From: a virus
Lineage: Duplodnaviria > Caudoviricetes
Length of the DNA stretch: 31,705 nt
Direction: 5' to 3' (one strand)
Virus record (IMG/VR): IMGVR_UViG_3300022862_000020
Coordinates: 1 to 31,705 of that record
Both the position numbers and the translations under genes were made by a program. Shown here in pieces: positions 5,526-25,851 of this stretch. The notes beneath the pieces were generated by a model. It was given only the letters and a program-made list of their open reading frames with translations, searched no databases and had not been told where the DNA came from. The number at the start of each line of letters is the position of its first letter. Position 1 is the stretch's first letter.

Positions 5526-5848
5526 CAGGAGAACCTTATTACAATTAGGCGCATCGTTGAGCTGGTCGTGCTGCTGTATTGCTCCCTTCCTCGAATATAG
5601 CTATAGACACGTACCGCACCGGCTATGACTTCGGTCTCAAGTTGCATGTCGGTACTTACATTATAGTTTCCAATCGGAACAACAAACGCCGCGCAGTTGC
5701 TTGTGGTTATCCCGGGAATGGATATGGTCTGAAAGTTTGCGGAGTTGGTTCCCGTAACAACTCCGCTATAGACAACACGCATGGTGAGCGACGATGGATC
5801 AAGCGTGATGTTGTTACTTTCATCACGGACTTCAATCCCAAAACTCAT
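5525..5848 (-). CDS. Small tail tip-associated protein
   Basis: 107 aa; MSFGIEVRDE start resembles the neighbouring gene; overlaps the gpJ stop. Confidence 0.7.
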   Translation of the reverse strand: MSFGIEVRDESNNITLDPSSLTMRVVYSGVVTGTNSANFQTISIPGITTSNCAAFVVPIGNYNVSTDMQLETEVIAGAVRVYSYIRGREQYSSTTSSTMRLIVIRFS

Positions 5849-8800
5849 GCTGAGAGATCTCCAAGTTGCACACGCTTAACGCCGTTCTGGTCGTATACCT
5901 TGATGGCGCGGTTGGTCATGGTCAGACGACCACCGCCCGGGGCCGGTCCGTTGAACTCAAGATTGCCGGCTTTATCCAGGCGCCAGCCCTGCACGCCGGC
6001 GACGTAGTTGTCGGATTGCAGCGCCTGTCCGATCTTCAGCATCGTGATGCTGCCATCTTCAATAAACGCTGACCTGAGGAAAACCTGCCCGCCCTGAACC
6101 GCAAACGGAACCGAGATGGCGCCGCCAGCGATGGTGTTGACGATGGCGAAACGGTCAGCACTGACTAGGAACTGGCTTTGCAGGCCTGCCGCCGTGTTCT
6201 CGATGCCCAGGCCAATGCCGGCGGCGACATACTGTCCATTCGCGTTCACCTGCATCTTCACCGACCACATGGTGCTGAGCTTGCCGCTGGTGTCCGCGTA
6301 GGCTTCCGACGTTTGCTGAATGGCCGCTGAGTTGGCGCCCACCTTCACGCTCAACTGATCGATCTTGGTCGCCGTCGACGATTCGCTGGTGGCCACCACC
6401 TGCGACATCTCAGTGATGTTCGCCTCGTTTTTGCCCAGCTTGGCGTCCAAGGTGACCAACTGCCGGGCGAAGGCCTCGTCCTCCGAGGACCTGACACTAC
6501 GCTCAGCAGCAATCGATGCCGTGCTGTTCCAGCCGTCGATGGCGTCGTTAAGGTCGCCCTCCCCGTTGTCATCGCGATACGACGCCCGCAGCGCTTCGAA
6601 GGCCGTGGCCTGGGCGGTAACCACGCCGTCCAGCTCTACAATCTCGGCGGTGTTGGTCGCCACCTGCTGCGCCAGGCCGTTGGCCGTCTCGACCGACTGC
6701 CCGACATCAATCCAATAGGTGGTGTTGGGCGGTGGCGTGTTGATCGGAACCGGGATTTTCGCCTGGTAGATGCGGCCGTCCTCCACCACCATCTGGCCCA
6801 CCTCATAGGGCTCATCCGGCTCGTAGGCCGACAGCCCATCGAGCGCATCGATCTGGGCCTGGAGGCCTGGGATCTTCTCGATTTCACCCCTCAGCTCTTC
6901 GCTGAGTTCGGTTTCGCCAATCTGCCCGGCGATCAGCTCGAGGATTGGCCCAGCCTCCGAACTGGCCTGTCCCAGGACACCGTTGCCGACGGGGTACCAA
7001 GGGCCAATGTTCCCGGTGCGATCCACCAGGCGCGCCCAGAAAAAGAACGACGCACCCGCCAGCAGGCTCTGCATGCTGTAGTCGCTCTGGGGATAAGCCA
7101 GGTCGGCCAGCTTGGTGGCGTTCTCCAGGGCGTTGGTTGGGCCGTACCAGATCTCTGTTCGCTGGGTGTCCTCGGCGCCAGCGGGGAAGCCCCACTTGAG
7201 GCCGATGCCGAACAGCAGCGACGTAGCCGTCAGGAACGATACCGCCGGCGGCAGGCCCTCCTTCCCCTTGAGCTCAGTCAGCACAGAGTTGCGCCAGATC
7301 GACGAGATGTCGAAAGCGCTCACAGCACGGACGCGCGCCACATAGGCACCGGCATAGATGCCGACCACATCCACGTTTGTCGACCCGGTGCGTTGCACCT
7401 TGATCCAATTCCCGCTGTCCTTGCGCCACTCCACGTCGTAGGCAACAGCACCTTCCACGGCGGGCCAGCTTATGGTCATAGTGGCCACGGCCAGCCCCTG
7501 AACAACCGAGGAGGTCGACGCGACTGTCACGCTCGCAGGCGCCGGAACCACGGTGATAGGGATCACGCTGATCGGGCGGTCTTCCAGGCGTGCGCCAGTG
7601 TCGATGAAAGCGAACTTGCTCGGTTCGTACTGCAGCGCACTGATTTCGAAGTCGCCTTCGGTGGTGCGCTTGGTCCGGAGCACCCGATACAGCGGGATCG
7701 CTAGGTCATCCGCATCGAGCGCCCACTGAAGCTGCGCCCGGGGCGCTTCGCTGTAGGCGACGGTCACCGTTACGGCTCGGCCGGCAACACTCTGCACGGT
7801 CCGGCCTTCCGCGCGCCCGCCTGGCAGGTTGATGATCAGGCGATCACCGGCCTTGGCCTGGGTGTCGCGGTCCAGGGTCACAACCCGGCCGGCGGCGGCA
7901 GAAATGCGCCCGCCGATCTCCCGGCCAGCCAGCAGCGAGTCAGCCACTGGGATGATGTGGCCCGGCAGCGGAATCACGCCCTCCATGCCAGTCTTGAAGG
8001 TGACAGTCCGGTCCAGGTTGTTGCTGAGTATCGCCCACTTGCCGCGGCGCTGAGCCTCGGACGCCCGGGTGCAACCGATGGCGCTAAGCTCGGTTGGCCG
8101 GTCGCCATAGCGGCGTTGGAGCGGTAGGTCGGAGAACGGAATGACGTCGGTGTCGTAGTTGTTCGCCGGGTTGTCGTAGCTGACCAATGCCCGGGTATAC
8201 CGGGTCTTCGCCGAGGCGCTGCCGTAGGAGAATTTCCCGTCGATGACGTTCGCCCGGGTGAACACGTAGTCGAAGTCCTGGGCGCGCGGCATGTCGGCCT
8301 GCATGATCAACTGGCCCTGGGCCCAGTAGGTCATGCCGCGGTAGATGCCGGATATGTCCCGCAGCAGCGTCCAGGCGTCGGCCTTGCCCTGCAGGTTCAT
8401 GTCGCACAGGAAGCGCGGCTCGGTCCCACCCAGGCCGTCCGGCACCAGTTGGTCGCAATACTGCGCGATCCGGTACAGCTCCCACTTGTCGACCATGAAG
8501 GCCTTGATGCGCTTGCCCAGGCCGAAACGGTCCTCGGTGCAGATGCCGTACGTGATCCAGGCCGGGTTATTGGTCCAGGCCAGCTTCATGGTGCCGTCCC
8601 AAGTGCCGGTGTAGGTCCTGGCGATGGGGTCGTAGTTGCTCGGGACCTGCCACTTGCGAGCCTTGCACTTCACGGTGACAGCCGGGATGTTGGTGAACTG
8701 CTCGGCGTCGAACTCGATGTACAGCAGCGCGGTATTCGGGTAGCGCAGCTTTGCGTCAATCACCTCGGTGAAGCCGGCAATCAACATGGTGTCGGCGATT

Positions 8801-9411
8801 CTGTTGCTGTTTTGGTTCGGCGTGAGGCGGCGAACGCGGACCTGCCAGCCAGTCGTGGCCTCAGGAAGATCGACACGGATAGACCGCTCGTAGCGTGTGG
8901 TGGTCTTGCCATCCACCGCGCTAGGGAAAACCTGTTGATACGCCCCGCCATCAGTGGACAGGTCAATAGCGAAGTCAATGCGGTAACCGCCGACATTGCC
9001 TGCATCATCTTGGCGCTGCAGGGCCGGCCAGGCGAAGCGCACGCGCACGGCAGAAAGCTGGGTATTGGTGATTGATCGAACCCATGGCGCATCGCTGCGC
9101 AGCTCGATGTTCAGCGAAGTCTCGTTCTCAACCGACGGGATCCCTGGGATATAGGTCTGATCAACTGACCCGCTGCGCCATTCCCACTTCACGTTCGGGA
9201 AGTTGATGTTGCCGCTGGCGTCGTTGATCGGGGTGTTGTCCAGAAAGATGTCGGCCGCCGTGGGAACGCCCTCGAACTCTCCCTCTCCCACAGCAATCAG
9301 CAGCTTGGCAATGTTCGTGGAGCGCAGGTTGTCGCTGGCCTCGGTAGGGGACTTCGGCTTTTTATCTCCGCCCTTCGCGCCGTGAATGTCGTTCTTGCGT
9401 GCTGCGCCCAT
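5845..9411 (-). CDS. J: Central tail fibre / host specificity protein J
   Basis: 1188 aa; GAKGG start, LRYPNTAL, WTNNPAW, FN3-like region, coiled coil, DUF1983-like C-terminus ending RVQLG. Confidence 0.95.
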   Translation of the reverse strand: MGAARKNDIHGAKGGDKKPKSPTEASDNLRSTNIAKLLIAVGEGEFEGVPTAADIFLDNTPINDASGNINFPNVKWEWRSGSVDQTYIPGIPSVENETSLNIELRSDAPWVRSITNTQLSAVRVRFAWPALQRQDDAGNVGGYRIDFAIDLSTDGGAYQQVFPSAVDGKTTTRYERSIRVDLPEATTGWQVRVRRLTPNQNSNRIADTMLIAGFTEVIDAKLRYPNTALLYIEFDAEQFTNIPAVTVKCKARKWQVPSNYDPIARTYTGTWDGTMKLAWTNNPAWITYGICTEDRFGLGKRIKAFMVDKWELYRIAQYCDQLVPDGLGGTEPRFLCDMNLQGKADAWTLLRDISGIYRGMTYWAQGQLIMQADMPRAQDFDYVFTRANVIDGKFSYGSASAKTRYTRALVSYDNPANNYDTDVIPFSDLPLQRRYGDRPTELSAIGCTRASEAQRRGKWAILSNNLDRTVTFKTGMEGVIPLPGHIIPVADSLLAGREIGGRISAAAGRVVTLDRDTQAKAGDRLIINLPGGRAEGRTVQSVAGRAVTVTVAYSEAPRAQLQWALDADDLAIPLYRVLRTKRTTEGDFEISALQYEPSKFAFIDTGARLEDRPISVIPITVVPAPASVTVASTSSVVQGLAVATMTISWPAVEGAVAYDVEWRKDSGNWIKVQRTGSTNVDVVGIYAGAYVARVRAVSAFDISSIWRNSVLTELKGKEGLPPAVSFLTATSLLFGIGLKWGFPAGAEDTQRTEIWYGPTNALENATKLADLAYPQSDYSMQSLLAGASFFFWARLVDRTGNIGPWYPVGNGVLGQASSEAGPILELIAGQIGETELSEELRGEIEKIPGLQAQIDALDGLSAYEPDEPYEVGQMVVEDGRIYQAKIPVPINTPPPNTTYWIDVGQSVETANGLAQQVATNTAEIVELDGVVTAQATAFEALRASYRDDNGEGDLNDAIDGWNSTASIAAERSVRSSEDEAFARQLVTLDAKLGKNEANITEMSQVVATSESSTATKIDQLSVKVGANSAAIQQTSEAYADTSGKLSTMWSVKMQVNANGQYVAAGIGLGIENTAAGLQSQFLVSADRFAIVNTIAGGAISVPFAVQGGQVFLRSAFIEDGSITMLKIGQALQSDNYVAGVQGWRLDKAGNLEFNGPAPGGGRLTMTNRAIKVYDQNGVKRVQLGDLSA

Positions 9412-10116: not shown

Positions 10117-10464
10117 TTACAGACAGCCTCTCACCGCCTGTTCCATATCGGCCCGCCCATATCCAGGGGCCCAGGCCATGCGCTGGTACAGCTTTACAGC
10201 GCTGCCCTTTGACGTCTTGCGGATGCTTAGCAATTCGTCGGTCATGTTGTTGGTCGCTGCGATGAGTCGGTAGCCATACTCCGTCTCGGACATGGTCACG
10301 TCACTGCGTGCGTCCTGCCATCTCGGGAGGACGCATAGCGCGTAACGCTTCGGGTCCTTCGCCGAGCTGACCGAGATGCTAGGGTCTTTCGACTCCAAGT
10401 CGCCAGGGGAGACGCACCCAGCCAAAACAGACACGCCCAGCACTAGAACAAAAGCTTTAATCAT
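10117..10464 (-). CDS. Small lipoprotein (115 aa)
   Basis: GAGGAGG RBS; MIKAFVLVLGVSVLAGC lipobox; two further Cys. Confidence 0.8.
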   Translation of the reverse strand: MIKAFVLVLGVSVLAGCVSPGDLESKDPSISVSSAKDPKRYALCVLPRWQDARSDVTMSETEYGYRLIAATNNMTDELLSIRKTSKGSAVKLYQRMAWAPGYGRADMEQAVRGCL

Positions 10465-10474
10465 TACCCCCTCC

Positions 10475-11056
10475 TCACTGGAACTGCTCAAAAACGTACC
10501 GGTTATTGGAAGGAGTAGGCTTTGGATAGGCCTCCTGCCAATCACGAGCATAGGATGGGAAGCGCTCTATCGAGGCAATTTTCCAATTATCTGTCGACTT
10601 CCCTCTTTCAAGAGTGTACCGATAACGCTCGCCTGCCTCTTTGGCCTTTCTGTCAGACTCGTCCATCTCCGCACCAGGATCAGCCGGTTCGATGTTCCGG
10701 ATAACGGCACTGACAACGGCACGCGTTTCGGACTCCACATCCACCTTGGCTATCTTCCTTTCGTACGAATCCGTCACGGAGCAGTCAGTTCGAAAATGGA
10801 GAGAATCCGCTGCAAGCTCCCCGAGTTTTTCGTCCTTTGGGCCAATCATCTTCATGTATTCGGCGCAGATCTCACGATCCAGTCGGATTCCAGCATCTTT
10901 CACGGCCCACCAAGATTTCACCGCCGCATCTGGTGAGTTGGCCGCAATTTGTAAGTCCTTAATATCCTTTGTGGCTTTTGCCAGGCCAGCAGGCTTACTT
11001 TCATCTAAACAGCCAGCCAGGGATATGGCTAAAGCCACGCCTACGAACAATCTCAT
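10475..11056 (-). CDS. Lipoprotein of unknown function (193 aa)
   Basis: AGGAG RBS; MRLFVGVALAISLAGC lipobox; SPDAAVKSWW...WKIASI pattern suggests an NTF2-like fold (inference). Confidence 0.8.
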   Translation of the reverse strand: MRLFVGVALAISLAGCLDESKPAGLAKATKDIKDLQIAANSPDAAVKSWWAVKDAGIRLDREICAEYMKMIGPKDEKLGELAADSLHFRTDCSVTDSYERKIAKVDVESETRAVVSAVIRNIEPADPGAEMDESDRKAKEAGERYRYTLERGKSTDNWKIASIERFPSYARDWQEAYPKPTPSNNRYVFEQFQ

Positions 11057-11196
11057 GGGGTCACTCCTGTGGAAGATGGCGACAAGATATCACCCCACAA
11101 GCTGTCTGGGCATCCAGCGTGGACGAAAGCCCAGTAACTGGATTGGATCCGATAGTAGTAGCGTTATGCCGCCTAACTACCGCACAGGAGGCCTGT

Positions 11197-11448
11197 ATGG
11201 CATTCGTTACGGAAGAAACAAAGAAATATATCGTGACCACTGATAAGCCGAAGAATGACCATTGGACACATATCTACGGGATCGGACAAAAAGTGCCTGT
11301 GTCTGGCATTTATCGTTGCTATCACTGCGGTGATGAAATCACTTCAAACGCAGGTGACCCGTTCCCACCGCAAAACAAAAATCAGCACCAATGCCAGGGA
11401 AAGCCCGTGCAATGGGAGCTGATCGTCAGAACACAAACCAAAGCCTGA
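11197..11448 (+). CDS. YjzC-like small zinc-ribbon protein (83 aa)
   Basis: AGGAGG RBS; GQKVPVSGIYRCYHCGDEI...GDPFPP...C...W pattern. Confidence 0.75.
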   Translation: MAFVTEETKKYIVTTDKPKNDHWTHIYGIGQKVPVSGIYRCYHCGDEITSNAGDPFPPQNKNQHQCQGKPVQWELIVRTQTKA

Positions 11449-11542
11449 ACAAGCAAATCCGGAATTCCCCCAGCCCTTTGCCTGCAAACCCAAGGACTGG
11501 GATTGCGCCAATTTCGGCGCGGACAACGCAAGGAAAAGAAAT

Positions 11543-11788
11543 ATGACCAATCTAACTGCAGAGCAGCGCATAAGTGATCTTGAGCTCGTCCTTAAAACTG
11601 TGATCATTTTCAACACGAATGCCATTGCAACGCTGAGCCGGAGAGTCACTGAGGGAAATCCCGCAATTGCTACTGTGCTGGCTGATGATCTGGCCGCCCT
11701 TAAATCGAACACTTACATCAGTATTGATAAGGGCTTATTTGACGGCTATGTCGATAGCCTCATAACCATTATCACTGGGAAGCCTTGA
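11543..11788 (+). CDS. Hypothetical helical protein (81 aa), antisense to the late operon; candidate defence effector
   Basis: AAGGA RBS; AT-rich codon usage; N-terminal heptad AEQRISDLE; its 3' end overlaps the convergent ORF. Confidence 0.7.
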   Translation: MTNLTAEQRISDLELVLKTVIIFNTNAIATLSRRVTEGNPAIATVLADDLAALKSNTYISIDKGLFDGYVDSLITIITGKP

Positions 11789-11948
11789 ATCCAGCGGCGA
11801 TGATCTGGCCCTTCGCATTTTCTTTCATCAAAACTTCCCAGTTTTGAGACAGGGCCGACCGACCATCCTCATGGCGCGCATTGTCGCGGATTACAGCGCC
11901 GACAATGCGCGCCTGCCCATCAGCAGTAACCTCAAAAGGCTGGTTCAT
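11772..11948 (-). CDS. 58-aa protein resembling the gpJ C-terminal (DUF1983-like) region in permuted order
   Basis: CAGGAG RBS, 25 bp after the gpK stop. LSQNWEVLMKENAKGQIIAAG matches gpJ LSTMWSVKMQVNANGQYVAAG at 12/21 positions. Confidence 0.7.
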   Translation of the reverse strand: MNQPFEVTADGQARIVGAVIRDNARHEDGRSALSQNWEVLMKENAKGQIIAAGFKASQ

Positions 11949-11973
11949 ATGGTTCTCCTGCGGCCCTGCCGCT

Positions 11974-12738
11974 TCATGTGGTTGGTTGTGCATCTTTGTG
12001 CCTGAGGATCAGGCGTGCTCTGTCGAGCCATGGGCCACCGAAAACGATAATTTCGCTCGGGCGCCCATACAGGTGGTGCAGCAGAAAAGGCCCGGGGCCG
12101 AAGGTCTCGCCCTCCTCGCCAGGTAGCGAAGGATCGACACCGAGGAATATGCCGGCATGGTTCGGGTGAACCGTCCGCCCCACCTCCATGACGACCATGT
12201 CGCCGCGCTGCGGCTGGTCAACCCGGTAGAATCCGGCGGCTTCGTAGTTGGCCTCGTACAGGCTCGTGTTGTCCTTGCTCTCCCACCAGCCGTCGGCGCG
12301 CTTGAAGGCTTCGAACTCAAGACCCCATTCGCGCTTGTACCAGTCGGCGCAGACCTGCCAGCAGTCCCATGCGCCATGGACGAATGGCCGCTTCAACAGC
12401 GGCGTTTCGCCCTTGGGCACCACCGTCCGCAGGTCGCCCTCCGGCCAGCTCAGGATGTGCCAGGGCAGCTCTGTCGCTTCGCACATCGCCAGGTCGCGCG
12501 GCGATGGCCGGCTGGTGGCGTCAGGGTGGGAGTGAACGACACCGATCACCTCGCCCAGGTCTTCCGCTGCGGCGTATTCCTCGGGATCGATGCGAAATTC
12601 CTCGTTCGGCTCGGTCGCGGTGTTCCTGCATGGTAAGTACTGCTGCTTTCGGCCCACGGCCAGCAGCAGCCCGCAGCACTCCTTCGGGTACTCGGCCGCC
12701 GCGTGCGCCTGGATCGCGCTCAAGATGTGTTTGCGCAT
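11974..12738 (-). CDS. K: Tail assembly protein K (JAB + NlpC/P60)
   Basis: YPKECCG, VVHSHP...S..D JAB motif; DCW and HAGI...LHH NlpC motifs. Confidence 0.95.
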   Translation of the reverse strand: MRKHILSAIQAHAAAEYPKECCGLLLAVGRKQQYLPCRNTATEPNEEFRIDPEEYAAAEDLGEVIGVVHSHPDATSRPSPRDLAMCEATELPWHILSWPEGDLRTVVPKGETPLLKRPFVHGAWDCWQVCADWYKREWGLEFEAFKRADGWWESKDNTSLYEANYEAAGFYRVDQPQRGDMVVMEVGRTVHPNHAGIFLGVDPSLPGEEGETFGPGPFLLHHLYGRPSEIIVFGGPWLDRARLILRHKDAQPTT

Positions 12739-22927: not shown

Positions 22928-24058
22928 TTATGCCTTCGGCAGGTGGGCGGTTTGCATGTCGGCAATCATCTGCAGACGCGCTTTTTCCGATTCATCGCCG
23001 ACGGTCTTGCCGTCCTGCTGAATCATGTGTTGGCGGAATGGGTCATTGCCGGGCTGCTTGGCGGCATCCTCGACCAGGATCTCAAAGCGTGCGTCGACAT
23101 ATGCATCCGCCTTGCCGGCAACAGCCGCATCACCCAGCTTGGCGATCACGACGGCCTTGCGGATCTCGGCATCGCTTTTGCCGGTGTAGTCGGCATCGGC
23201 GATGGATTTGGCCTTGGTGATCAGGTCAGCGCGGTCTTTCACGCGCTTGTCGATGTCGGCGTCACTGAGCTGCTTGGCCTTGAGGGCGTCGATCTCGGCG
23301 TCTTTCTTCGCCAGTTCGCCATCCTTCAGCGCCAGCGCAGCGGTGTGCGCGTCGGTCAGGGATTTGATGTTTACCCCGGCATCGTCCAGCTGCTTGGTCA
23401 GCTTGTCGATCGCCTGGGCGCCTTGGTCGGTCGTCTGGACGGACAGGCCATCAACGATGACCGTACGCAGTGTGTCAGCCATGTCATGGCCTCCTTTGGG
23501 GGTGTTTGGTTGGTTGTCACCGATGCGAAGCTGCTCGCCGCCCCGAGCGCGATGCTCAAGGCTGAGGTGATTCATTTTCATGGGGCCCAGGTAGCAGTCG
23601 TACTGCTCGCCGTCTGGGGAAACGCCATCCTGAAACACGACTTCGGCGCCGTAGCCCATGGACAGCTCACGCTTGCCGGCCTCGTAGTCCTCGATGGCTT
23701 TGGCATCCATCAGCACCAGGGGCACCTTGACGAACTGCCCGTCGCGCACGACTTCTCCACCGGTCTGGCCGATGGCGACGTCCTTCCAGTTCTTGGAGGT
23801 GACACCATCGCCGCCCGGGTGGCCGTTGGTCATGGGCCGGTATGCGTAGGAGTGCATCGCGTCCTTGTGAAAGACCGCGCTTTCAGGCCGGTACACACGA
23901 ACGATTGGCTTGTCGCGCAGACCGTGTTCATTGTCGGGATCGATCTCGGTGCCCAGGTAATCCTGAATGCCCGTTCGCGCTACCCGTGCTTCAGCTACCA
24001 GGTAGCCGTCCTCGGTGCGCCGTACACCCGTGATCGGCACGGAGTCGGTGAAGATCAT
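22928..24058 (-). CDS. DUF2213 protein (prohead protease-scaffold)
   Basis: RTEDGYLV...ARTGIQDY, VYRPESAVF, PMTNGHP, ELSMGY, NHLSL...RARGG; coiled-coil C-terminal half. Confidence 0.88.
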   Translation of the reverse strand: MIFTDSVPITGVRRTEDGYLVAEARVARTGIQDYLGTEIDPDNEHGLRDKPIVRVYRPESAVFHKDAMHSYAYRPMTNGHPGGDGVTSKNWKDVAIGQTGGEVVRDGQFVKVPLVLMDAKAIEDYEAGKRELSMGYGAEVVFQDGVSPDGEQYDCYLGPMKMNHLSLEHRARGGEQLRIGDNQPNTPKGGHDMADTLRTVIVDGLSVQTTDQGAQAIDKLTKQLDDAGVNIKSLTDAHTAALALKDGELAKKDAEIDALKAKQLSDADIDKRVKDRADLITKAKSIADADYTGKSDAEIRKAVVIAKLGDAAVAGKADAYVDARFEILVEDAAKQPGNDPFRQHMIQQDGKTVGDESEKARLQMIADMQTAHLPKA

Positions 24059-25851
24059 GGGGCTAGCTCCTCGAAGATCTCAGGGCCCAGCTCAATCGCG
24101 CCACGGTATGGCTCGACCTTGTCGATATCGACGCTGCCGGGATCGTAGGTGAAAGTGATGTGAGGCTGATAATCCGGCCAGTCCCACGAGGCGCCTGCCT
24201 CGACGATGGAAACGTGCCGCCATGACAGCTCGGAGCTGTTGAACAGCAGCACCACAGCGCCTTCACCGAACTTGTCGATCAGCCTTGCACCACCCGGTGC
24301 AATCTTGAGCTGCCCCTTGCCATCGCCCGACCATGACTCGCCGACCTTCATCCAATCAACCGGGTTGCGGCTGTAGGCGACGGTGACGTGTAGGTCAGCA
24401 GCAGGGACAGTTGATTCAAAGCCCTGCGACTTGGCCCACTCGATTATCTCGGCACCGTTGGCGACCTTCCTCGACACGTACAGGGTGCGCGGCGCGGCAT
24501 CGGTGACCAGTTTTTTCGGTGCTGGCGCGGATGCTGCTGATTCGGGCAAGTCCTCACCCTCCTCGCCATCGGGCATCTCGTTGCCGTACTTCTCGATGGC
24601 CGCTTCCAGGCCAGGCATGACGCTCAGCTCCACCAGCAGGTTAACTGCGGTAGCCGACAGGGCCTCTTCAGGGAACAGACCCGAATCCTTGAGAGCCTTG
24701 ATGGTGTCTGCCGTGGTCTTGCCGATGTCGGCCCTTTCCTTCGCCGTGGCCTGCCACAGTGGCGCCCAGACGTAGTGGACTTCCTTCGGCCGACTGCCCA
24801 GGGAGGATCGGATCAGGCACTCGTCCAACAGGCTCATGGCCGGCTTGATCTCAAGCTTCTGGCGTGAGGCGACGTTGTCGTAGTAGTTGCGGGTGTTCTC
24901 TTCGCCGTTGGCGCCCAGGCCCGTGGAGGACTGGCCGAACATGCGCGTGCCGGGGATATCGAACGCCCCCGCCACGCCCTGCTCAGTCTTGGCGATTACC
25001 TCGGGTAGCGTGCTGAAACTGGCCGACTTGGAACTGTGTGTCTCCAGGCCATCGAGGATCAGCGTCCCGTTGATGCCTTTGGCGGTTGCTGCCAGGCGCA
25101 GGCGCTCCAGCAACTGCCGCTCATAGTTCTTGTCCTGCATGCTGGACATGAGGTTGGGGATGTTGATCACATCGATCTTGGCCTCATAGACCAGGCTCAC
25201 TACGTTGGCGACTGTCTCGTCGTAGTGACGTACCGCGGGCATGGCAGCCAGCAGCACCGAGTCACCCCAGCCGAAACCGCAACCCAGCGCCAGCTCAGGG
25301 TCTGGATGCGGCGCGCCAATGAAGATGACCAGGCGGGACGGATGAATCTCGACCTCGCTGCCAGGGAGGCGGTAGGCCTTGGGCTTGCCGAAGCGTTCGC
25401 TTTGGGGGTCCTGCTCGATCTCGGTTGGGCTCAGTTGGCGCCGAGTCATGACGGTCAGGTACTTGATTCCACCCTTCCCCACGCGATCAGGCTTTAGCAC
25501 TGAGGCCGTGTCGCGCTCACCGGTGCCGATGAACACAGCCGCGCCACCGAACAGGCGGGCCTTCAATAGAGCCTCCAGAGTCTTGCCCTTGACGTTCAGG
25601 CGCTCCTCTTCCGCTTCGATCAGCTCGATCTGGGCTTTGTCAGCTTGCCAGTTGCGCCAGTTGCGGCAGGCGTCCACCGCCGGGATGGTCACGCCCTTCT
25701 GGGCCGTCCAGGAGCCACGGAAGGCGTTCAGCAGCTGCTGGTCGTCCATTTCTGGGGGCGCATAGTGCGAGTGTGAAGCCTTGTCGCGCGCAGTACCCAG
25801 TCCTGCGACCAGGTTCTGCAGGCTGTCTTTCAGGTAAGTGAATGCGCTCAT
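24055..25851 (-). CDS. Portal protein (DUF1073-type) fused to a C-terminal Acb1-like 2H phosphoesterase
   Basis: Portal motifs ARLFGGA, IHPSR, GWGDSVL, GAFDIPGTRMFGQS.TGL, NYYD, PLWQ; acidic/Pro linker; then about 146 aa with LHVTVAYSR and YQPHITFTY. Confidence 0.9.
   Translation of the reverse strand: MSAFTYLKDSLQNLVAGLGTARDKASHSHYAPPEMDDQQLLNAFRGSWTAQKGVTIPAVDACRNWRNWQADKAQIELIEAEEERLNVKGKTLEALLKARLFGGAAVFIGTGERDTASVLKPDRVGKGGIKYLTVMTRRQLSPTEIEQDPQSERFGKPKAYRLPGSEVEIHPSRLVIFIGAPHPDPELALGCGFGWGDSVLLAAMPAVRHYDETVANVVSLVYEAKIDVINIPNLMSSMQDKNYERQLLERLRLAATAKGINGTLILDGLETHSSKSASFSTLPEVIAKTEQGVAGAFDIPGTRMFGQSSTGLGANGEENTRNYYDNVASRQKLEIKPAMSLLDECLIRSSLGSRPKEVHYVWAPLWQATAKERADIGKTTADTIKALKDSGLFPEEALSATAVNLLVELSVMPGLEAAIEKYGNEMPDGEEGEDLPESAASAPAPKKLVTDAAPRTLYVSRKVANGAEIIEWAKSQGFESTVPAADLHVTVAYSRNPVDWMKVGESWSGDGKGQLKIAPGGARLIDKFGEGAVVLLFNSSELSWRHVSIVEAGASWDWPDYQPHITFTYDPGSVDIDKVEPYRGAIELGPEIFEELAP

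What the first reader, a model, noticed from the sequence alone, without database searches (positions are those of the whole stretch)
11543..11948. Candidate tail-assembly defence plus self-mimic antidote: 81-aa antisense gene convergent with a permuted mini-gpJ
Seen: the 58-aa ORF 11948..11772 has its own RBS right after gpK, so it lies in the late transcript. Its C-half LSQNWEVLMKENAKGQIIAAG matches this phage's gpJ LSTMWSVKMQVNANGQYVAAG (about 6217-6279) at 12/21 positions. Its N-half PFEVTADGQARIVGAVIRD resembles gpJ PFAVQGGQVFLRSAFIED (about 6055-6108), but the two blocks are in reversed order. It overlaps by 17 bp the 3' end of an AT-rich 81-aa gene on the opposite strand. Known (from memory): prophage Tai and Tab systems block tail assembly of superinfecting phages and carry late-expressed counter-defence genes, and Tai acts at the central tail fibre. 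Inference: the 81-aa protein is made in the lysogen and binds the gpJ C-terminal region, while the mini-J is a decoy protecting the resident phage on induction; antisense overlap may add silencing. No sequence homology to Tai is claimed.
Basis: partly seen in the sequence, partly recalled or inferred. Interest (0 to 1): 0.82.

Follow-up and report, generated by a model that had tools for sequence, protein, structure and literature searches.

The report
Prophage defence cassettes with tail-tip decoys
Dormant viruses of soil Pseudomonas carry swappable two-gene cassettes in which a small back-to-front gene, likely a weapon against rival viruses' tail tips, is paired with a mini-protein copied from a piece of the virus's own tail-tip protein, which likely acts as a decoy that shields the owner.

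Summary
Both genes, the ribosome-binding site, the 17-bp overlap and the C-half match to gpJ (12/21; shuffle p<0.001) are real. The N-half match is at chance level (p=0.66), and the 'permutation' looks like a fusion of two cassettes' mini-genes. The pair travels together: 24 of 26 distinct cassettes of the 81-aa family have a convergent mini-gene, and 17 of 24 match the same gpJ segment. The finding is larger than reported. The slot after gpK in Pseudomonas prophages holds many interchangeable cassettes. Of 132 distinct mini-proteins, 15 hit a gpJ profile (0.02 expected) and none hit nine other tail proteins. Each antisense partner family is tied to its own gpJ C-terminal piece or pieces. One partner family, not this one, scores against the known tail-assembly blocker Tab (E about 5e-5). 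The 81-aa protein itself shows no homology to Tai or Tab. Best reading (0.6): it blocks assembly of incoming gpJ, and the late mini-J is a decoy antidote. Defence, binding and lysogenic expression are all inferred. Seven literature searches found no report of target-derived antidotes. New variant of a known kind; interest 0.78.

The parts
11543..11788 (+). 81-aa three-helix protein (family F1), antisense to the late operon; inferred defence protein
   Evidence: family; AF2 pLDDT 91.5, helices 6-36, 40-53, 63-78; pN/pS 0.30
11772..11948 (-). 58-aa mini-protein directly after gpK; inferred decoy antidote
11790..11852 (-). C-block of the mini-protein (residues 33-53), gpJ-like beta-hairpin, outside the overlap with the 81-aa gene
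   Evidence: 12/21 to J 1045-1065; conserved across F1 minis; strands 37-43 and 49-56 in the AF2 model
11877..11948 (-). N-block of the mini-protein (residues 1-24); stand-alone mini-gene of the F0a cassette in other prophages, likely a leftover here
   Evidence: degenerate or replaced in most F1 cassettes; J likeness not significant
11955..11959 (-). AGGAG ribosome-binding site of the mini-gene
   Evidence: same position in most slots
11469..11530 (+). conserved leader with two inverted repeats directly upstream of the partner gene, shared by cassettes of nearly all families; candidate crossover arm or regulatory leader
   Evidence: (122 of 155 slots); no Rfam match
11132..11162 (+). conserved promoter-like motif upstream of the antisense genes (function not shown)
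   Evidence: antisense in 67 of 107 complete slots, sense in 0; not a sigma-70 consensus match
11197..11448 (+). 83-aa antisense moron gene (phrog_15514), probably co-transcribed with the 81-aa gene; not a fixed part of the cassette
   Evidence: beside the 81-aa gene in 3 of 17 loci
11974..12738 (-). gpK (JAB + NlpC/P60); its 3' end is the fixed upstream border of the slot
5845..9411 (-). gpJ tail-tip protein, 1188 aa; PF09327 at residues 1030-1167; source of the mimicked segments and inferred target
6217..6279 (-). gpJ 1045-1065 (lambda J about 859-879), the segment copied by the C-block

Best explanation
The 81-aa gene and the 58-aa gene form a swappable cassette in a prophage tail operon, in which the mini-protein carries a copy of gpJ residues 1045-1065, the 81-aa protein likely binds that same segment on newly made gpJ of an incoming phage and likely blocks tail assembly, and the mini-protein, likely made only from the late transcript, likely soaks up the 81-aa protein so that the resident phage can build its tail. 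Shown: the anatomy, the gpJ likeness, the pairing, and the recurrence with other partner families and other gpJ pieces. Inferred: expression in the lysogen, anti-phage activity, both binding steps, and any antisense damping. The N-half of the mini-protein is probably what remained of a previous cassette's mini-gene after a crossover inside it.
For: (1) C-block 12/21, 0 of 2000 shuffles; identity to the own J codons is 16/18/8 of 29 by codon position, so the likeness is kept as protein, not as a fresh DNA copy. (2) 24 of 26 distinct F1 cassettes have an RBS-led convergent mini-gene; 17 of 24 match a J-only profile of 1030-1075 at p<=0.01, against 0, 0 and 2 for three other J segments; the pair has moved as a unit to two other places in tail operons (L008, L347). 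(3) 15 of 132 distinct post-gpK minis score >=5 bits on a full-length gpJ profile (0.02 expected, 0 reversed), 13 in J 1024-1162 and 2 in 818-848; 0 on nine other tail-protein profiles and 0 of 660 off-frame translations; the F1 mini profile's top 30 hits among 2577 ORFs are all gpJ. (4) Partner family predicts the J piece: F1 10/15 segment C, FA 6/6 segment A, F0b 5/9 segment F, F3 7/12 E and 6/12 F, F4 6, 3 and 4 of 10 C, D and E, F11 2/2 B and E, F13 2/2 B; FA, F0a and F0b are homologous yet carry different minis. (5) The slot's F8 partner profile scores Tab at E=3-6e-5, 0 of 2000 shuffles. (6) Tab/anti-Tab has the same size and convergent layout (PMC10884400 section 8), and the gpJ C-terminal region is a proven target of Tai and HepS (PMC11364771, PMC13043305).
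Against: No experiment shows defence or binding. The 81-aa protein has no significant likeness to Tab or Tai (p=0.59 and 0.42; profile E=0.035), no PADLOC hit and no fold match; its link to Tab is only through weak F8-F1 scores (E>=0.015). Purifying selection on the F1 J-like block is weak (pN/pS 0.62, against 0.78 for the N-half and 0.30 for the partner; uncorrected, non-independent pairs). 3 of 24 F1 minis do not match the segment, and 3 of 15 also scored on an unrelated control J segment. Pairing of adjacent, overlapping genes is expected from linkage alone. The F2, F5 and F6 minis (0 of 25) and most F8 minis (1 of 4) are not J-like, and neither anti-Tab nor Ati resembles its system's target, so mimicry is not the rule for such antidotes. 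No sigma-70 promoter was found. Many of the 26 cassettes are close relatives.
Confidence: 0.6

Rival explanations
1. The 81-aa protein senses the same gpJ segment but then kills or arrests the cell (abortive infection, HepS-like); the mini-J is a ligand that binds without activating.
For: HepS is switched on by a 32-residue gpJ peptide (PMC13043305, passages); an RxxxxH (HEPN-type, recalled label) family occupies the same slot, 7 of 7.
Against: No RxxxxH in 25 F1 sequences and no clear membrane helix (maximum 19-residue hydropathy 1.42 in the window's protein, one member 1.71); no enzyme fold; a J-like ligand would risk activating a sensor; the HEPN-type family's minis are not J-like.
Confidence: 0.13
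2. The mini-J is a decoy against gpJ-sensing defences of the host or of other prophages; the 81-aa gene is a separate moron, or has another target, and is merely linked.
For: The N-block aligns best to the stretch equivalent to the HepS trigger (own F1111 = lambda F924); linkage alone explains co-occurrence; the mini's own-phage J ranks above the median in 20 of 28 cases.
Against: When cassettes fuse, the block kept is the one that goes with the adjacent partner (F1 keeps the C-block and loses the N-block; L279 keeps the F2 mini with an F2 partner); N-block pN/pS is 0.32 beside F0a partners and 0.78 beside F1; I did not search for C-block minis lacking a partner beyond the slots sampled.
Confidence: 0.12
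3. The mini-ORF is a decaying relic of recombination with gene J that rides along in the 3' region of the 81-aa gene.
For: pN/pS 0.62 in the block; variable length, 41-61 aa; one chromosomal copy (L001) has lost its start.
Against: Third codon positions are at chance (8 of 29) while residues are kept; RBS and open frame in 24 of 26; at least five different J segments were captured, all C-terminal, none from nine other tail genes; sibling minis have pN/pS 0.12-0.32.
Confidence: 0.08
4. The mini-J acts on gpJ itself, as a folding aid for the own tail tip or as a poison of co-infecting phages' trimers, independent of the 81-aa protein.
For: It copies beta-strands of the trimeric fibre and folds as a hairpin in AF2; the window's mini fits its own J better than 99% of other J sequences.
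Against: A folding aid would not vary among five or more segments or be replaced by non-J minis in close relatives; a late-made poison would hit the own tail first; it does not explain the partner-segment association.
Confidence: 0.05

Closest known systems
Tab / anti-Tab (Pseudomonas phage JBD26; PMC10884400)
   Same: 83-aa antisense moron in a late operon, convergent with and overlapping a late-expressed antidote gene placed directly after a structural gene; sibling family F8 of this slot scores against Tab.
   Different: Tab lies between the terminase genes and targets the tape measure protein; anti-Tab is 83 aa and shows no likeness to the tape measure protein (p=0.56); the 81-aa protein is not detectably homologous to Tab.
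Tai / Ati (phi80 and others; PMC11364771)
   Same: Prophage moron antisense to the late operon; escape maps to the gpJ C-terminal region; late-expressed counter-defence gene.
   Different: Tai is 204 aa and tai/ati lie head-to-head; no similarity of Tai or Ati to any partner or mini family, and Ati does not score on the gpJ profile; the Tai escape residue shown is near the very end of J (V1176 of 1183, supplement 1).
HepS (Salmonella Gifsy-1; PMC13043305)
   Same: Binds a short linear segment of the gpJ central straight fibre on the nascent monomer; its trigger (lambda J 902-933) is equivalent to segment E, which F3, F4 and F11 minis copy.
   Different: HEPN tRNA nuclease; self-tolerance comes from a point variant in J, not from an antidote; the 81-aa protein lacks RxxxxH and its mini copies an upstream segment (lambda about 859-879).
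Tha/Ith and TerI/anti-TerI (PMC11087260; 10.1101/2025.02.27.640495)
   Same: Prophage defence against virion proteins with an antisense, lytically expressed inhibitor.
   Different: Firmicute phages, other targets; the words mimic (both papers) and decoy (TerI paper) do not occur in the main texts searched.

Membership tests
Tab / anti-Tab | About 83-aa antisense gene convergent with a late antidote gene | tested here: met
Tab / anti-Tab | Sequence homology of the defence protein to Tab | tested here: inconclusive
   81-aa protein vs Tab p=0.59, family profile E=0.035; no tblastn hit in the phage collection; sibling F8 vs Tab E=3-6e-5 and F8 vs F1 E>=0.015
Tab / anti-Tab | Position between small and large terminase genes | tested here: not met
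   between gpK and gpI
Tab / anti-Tab | Antidote homologous to anti-Tab | tested here: not met
   no mini-family profile scores anti-Tab above 0.5 bits
Tab / anti-Tab | Blocks tail assembly through the tape measure protein; tailless particles | not testable with these tools
   needs infection assays; the mini points to gpJ, and no mini scores on the tape-measure profile
Tai / Ati | Homology to Tai (about 200 aa) | tested here: not met
   only TaiEcA of the 57 listed homologues was compared
Tai / Ati | Non-contiguous operon: defence gene antisense inside the late operon | tested here: met
   but convergent with its partner, whereas tai/ati are head-to-head
Tai / Ati | Escape mutations in the gpJ C-terminal region; tailless particles | not testable with these tools
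   only the indirect pointer of the J-like mini
Tai / Ati | Constitutive expression in the lysogen | tested here: inconclusive
   RNA-library contigs cover the gene but give no strand or level; no sigma-70 consensus; conserved antisense motif
HepS | HEPN domain with RxxxxH | tested here: not met
   0 of 25 F1 sequences; no Pfam or PADLOC hit

The most novel reading that the evidence does not exclude
Lambdoid Pseudomonas prophages keep an exchangeable library of small tail-tip blockers, a hidden Tab-like superfamily, each aimed at a different short epitope of gpJ and each neutralised by an antidote cut from that very epitope; the antidote's sequence therefore names the target, giving a read-out of defence specificity straight from genomes.
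Probability: 0.45. Interest if true: 0.9.

Novelty: new variant of a known kind. Interest (0 to 1): 0.78.

Why it matters
How prophage defences that hit virion proteins spare their own phage is known in three forms in the papers read: an unrelated antidote protein, antisense control, and a tolerant target variant. An antidote copied from the target would be a fourth, and it explains how new defence-antidote pairs can arise cheaply. It also makes the system easy to test: each mini-gene predicts which 20-35 residues of gpJ its partner binds, for at least six partner families with no annotation, in a hotspot occupied in most prophages sampled (121 of 138 slots with a mini-gene had a convergent partner). 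It would extend Tab-like defence beyond JBD26 relatives and map vulnerable steps of tail-tip assembly.

Tried and rejected
Complex prediction, two copies of the 81-aa protein with J 1030-1078: no answer, score 0.00 against a mark of 0.32, partner fold uncertain; not evidence either way; the pair with the mini-protein was not folded (one job only). RNA-library contigs of 4 of 24 listed runs cover parts of the 81-aa gene but also scattered late genes, with no strand or level, and the runs were found with this stretch: uninformative. Fold searches in PDB and BFVD: no match at E<=0.001. Profile search of solved-structure sequences: three hits at E 1-4.4, one being tail needle gp26, as was a PHROG hit at E=0.07: treated as coiled-coil noise. 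ESM Atlas: best 0.86, IraP- and Pid-named clusters, below the 0.9 lead level; nothing for the mini. Pfam, PADLOC: none for either protein; none of 28 partner representatives hit a defence model other than a weak Csx1 stretch. Rfam: none. The leader folds no better than shuffles (z=-0.63) and only 2 of 8 pairs show two-sided changes, so an RNA structure is not established. GenBank phages: no match for two F1 proteins. Anti-Tab as a tape-measure mimic: rejected (p=0.56; best of nine tail genes p=0.012, not significant after nine tests). F2, F5, F6 minis as mimics of other tail proteins within 9 kb: no hit. True circular permutation of one J fragment: rejected in favour of fusion. Earlier findings of the scan: three look-ups, nothing.

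Full report
Setting. The window is a temperate lambdoid phage: integrase at 345-1529 and, on the minus strand, terminase, portal, capsid, tail tube, tape measure, gpM, gpL, gpK, gpI and gpJ. Relatives with names are Pseudomonas. Between gpK and gpI lies a low-GC slot with five small genes; the finding concerns the first two.

Observation. The 58-aa ORF (11948..11772, minus) starts 25 nt after the gpK stop with AGGAG 6 nt upstream, and overlaps the 81-aa ORF (11543..11788, plus) by 17 bp. Its C-block matches gpJ 1045-1065 at 12 of 21; BLASTP gives E=1e-5 and none of 2000 shuffles scores as well against the whole gpJ. The 81-aa gene is 46% GC against 61-64% for K, L, I and J. Over the 29 aligned codons the nucleotide identity to gene J is 16, 18 and 8 by codon position, and only 5 of 13 identical residues share a codon: the likeness is old and kept as protein.

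The pair. Homologues of the 81-aa protein (family F1) are few: 8, 9 representatives of which one is a long repeat protein that I dropped, 17 loci and 9 more, partly redundant. Of the first 17 loci, 14 have an intact gpK next to the gene, one a gpK fragment, one is cut off, and one lies elsewhere. Across all loci held, 54 hits collapse to 26 distinct cassettes, several of them close relatives. In 24 a rule found an RBS-led convergent mini-gene; 17 of 24 match a profile built from gpJ 1030-1075 alone at p<=0.01 and 21 at p<=0.025, 3 do not; three other J segments gave 0, 0 and 2. Of the two left, L064 has a J-like mini with a weak RBS (by eye) and L001 is a decayed chromosomal copy. The C-block is the conserved part; the N-half is replaced or degenerate in most members. 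The pair also occurs before the tape measure gene (L008) and after gpM (L347), so it moves as a unit. pN/pS is 0.30 for the partner, 0.62 for the J-like block and 0.78 for the N-half (17 non-independent pairs, uncorrected): selection on the block is present but weak.

The slot. A pattern for the gpK end fetched 194 loci (160 with long flanks). With the window, 157 of 195 have an RBS-led ORF of 20 aa or more just after gpK, 133 distinct. Of the 132 up to 110 aa, 15 score 5 bits or more on a full-length gpJ profile (composition correction off; 0.02 expected from 50 shuffles each; 0 reversed); 13 fall in J 1024-1162 and 2 in 818-848; the window's own mini scores 4.2, shuffle maximum 0.1. At 3 bits the count is 23, none in the first 800 residues; nine other tail-protein profiles gave 0, and 660 off-frame translations gave 0. 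Independently, 8 of 12 hand-picked minis (9 picked as J-like) hit Pfam PF09327 at E<=0.1 and one passes its cut-off. Of 138 slots with a mini and enough sequence, 121 have a convergent antisense ORF, 109 distinct pairs, which cluster into families (the chance rate for such an ORF was not measured). Family and J piece go together: F1 segment C 10 of 15; FA (six minis I grouped by eye) segment A 6 of 6; F0b segment F 5 of 9; F3 E 7 and F 6 of 12; F4 C 6, D 3, E 4 of 10; F11 B and E 2 of 2; F13 B 2 of 2; F9 B 2 of 3; F0a E only 1 of 9; F2, F5, F6 none of 25; F8 1 of 4. One of three control segments scored 3 F1, 1 F3 and 1 F4 minis, another 1 F3 mini, so single calls are noisy. Reciprocally, the top 30 hits of the F1, F0b, F3 and F11 mini profiles among 2577 ORFs are all gpJ-sized; F0a's are not. 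FA, F0a and F0b partners are homologous (hhalign 94-98%) yet carry different minis.

The permutation. The N-block is the complete mini-gene of F0a cassettes (26-41 aa, pN/pS 0.32). The window's mini is an F0a-type start fused to an F1-type end; L279 shows a like fusion of F5 and F2 minis beside an F2 partner. A leader of about 60-75 nt precedes the partner gene whatever its family (one antisense copy in 122 of 155 slots). Inference: cassettes are swapped by crossovers in the gpK end or inside the old mini-gene on one side and in the leader on the other.

The 81-aa protein. AF2 gives three helices at pLDDT 91.5, with no fold, Pfam or PADLOC match, no RxxxxH and no clear membrane helix. It is not detectably related to Tai or Tab of the reference phages. 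The F8 partner profile, however, scores Tab at E=6e-5 (one of 48 comparisons) and 3e-5 after widening without Tab, with 0 of 2000 shuffles and hhalign 33%, E=4.5e-4 over 66 columns; its next hits among 153 slot proteins are mostly F1 members at E>=0.015. This suggests, without proving, a loose Tab-like superfamily; amphipathic helices can mislead such scores. The mini is modelled with a confident beta-hairpin at 37-56 and an uncertain N-half.

Mechanism. Position and orientation put the mini in the late transcript and the partner on its own strand (inferred; no sigma-70 site was found, but a conserved motif lies antisense in 67 of 107 complete slots and never in sense). That is the layout of Tab/anti-Tab (PMC10884400: passages and section 8; gene map). 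The gpJ C-terminal region is where Tai escapers map (PMC11364771: parts 1-4 of 10 and a search of supplement 1; its figure pages are pictures and its spreadsheet was too large to read) and where HepS binds a 32-residue peptide of the nascent monomer (PMC13043305: passages); own F1111 aligns with lambda F924. A late antidote that copies a gpJ segment is most simply a competitive decoy, which implies that the partner binds that segment. I put blocking of tail assembly with a decoy at 0.6, sensing with cell arrest at 0.13, a decoy against other defences at 0.12, a relic at 0.08 and direct action on gpJ at 0.05. Against the best reading stand the lack of any functional data, the weak selection signal, linkage as a trivial cause of pairing, and the non-J minis of F2, F5, F6 and most F8.

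Novelty. Seven full-text searches (listings and abstract starts) and passage searches in PMC11087260, 10.1101/2025.02.27.640495, 10.1101/2023.04.06.535777, PMC12908700, PMC13434031 and 10.64898/2026.06.04.730250 found no antidote derived from the target protein and no description of this slot; subscription journals are not covered. Anti-Tab and Ati do not resemble their systems' targets. It works like Tab or Tai; it is not shown to be a member of either. Verdict: new variant of a known kind, interest 0.78.

Noticed in passing
window 24055-25851 (-): Portal protein fused at its C-terminus to an Acb1 anti-CBASS domain (PF23474, residues 455-596, E=1e-44).
   Followed up: no
L295:5022-5270, L187:2569-2820, L307:9314-9565 and others (family F8): Partner family in the post-gpK slot that scores against Tab of JBD26 (E=3-6e-5); possible Tab homologues outside JBD26 relatives.
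   Followed up: partly
window 11469-11530 (+): Highly conserved leader with two inverted repeats, often followed by a third over the RBS, upstream of partner genes of nearly all families; no Rfam match, little covariation; three slots also have a sense copy.
   Followed up: partly
L221:8247-8831, L256:8170-8769 and others (family F6): About 195-aa antisense proteins with RxxxxH (7 of 7), phrog_26374, each convergent with a non-J mini-gene: candidate HEPN defence with antidote in the same slot.
   Followed up: partly
L312:5370-5843, L174, L176 (family F7): Antisense aspartic-protease-like proteins in the same slot (weak Pfam hits).
   Followed up: no
L165:8507-8960, L144:1734-2223 (families F2, F5): Two well-conserved cassette types whose 67-89-aa sense genes match no tail protein within 9 kb; source or target unknown; L279 fuses both minis.
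   Followed up: partly
L194:8745-8960, L210:1124-1330 (family F4 minis): J-like N-part followed by a conserved helical heptad stretch that by eye resembles the N-terminal helix of F1 partners.
   Followed up: no
L008:5986-6400; L347:2001-2375: The F1 cassette sits in other tail-operon slots: before the tape measure gene and after gpM.
   Followed up: partly
window 11197-11448 (+), 10475-11056 (-), 10117-10464 (-): Further morons in the slot: an 83-aa CxxC protein (phrog_15514) and two lipoprotein-like genes (one phrog_914); they vary independently of the cassette.
   Followed up: no
L024:2581-3170: A toxin-antitoxin-like gene pair in the K-I slot that looks like HigBA (label recalled, not tested).
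   Followed up: no
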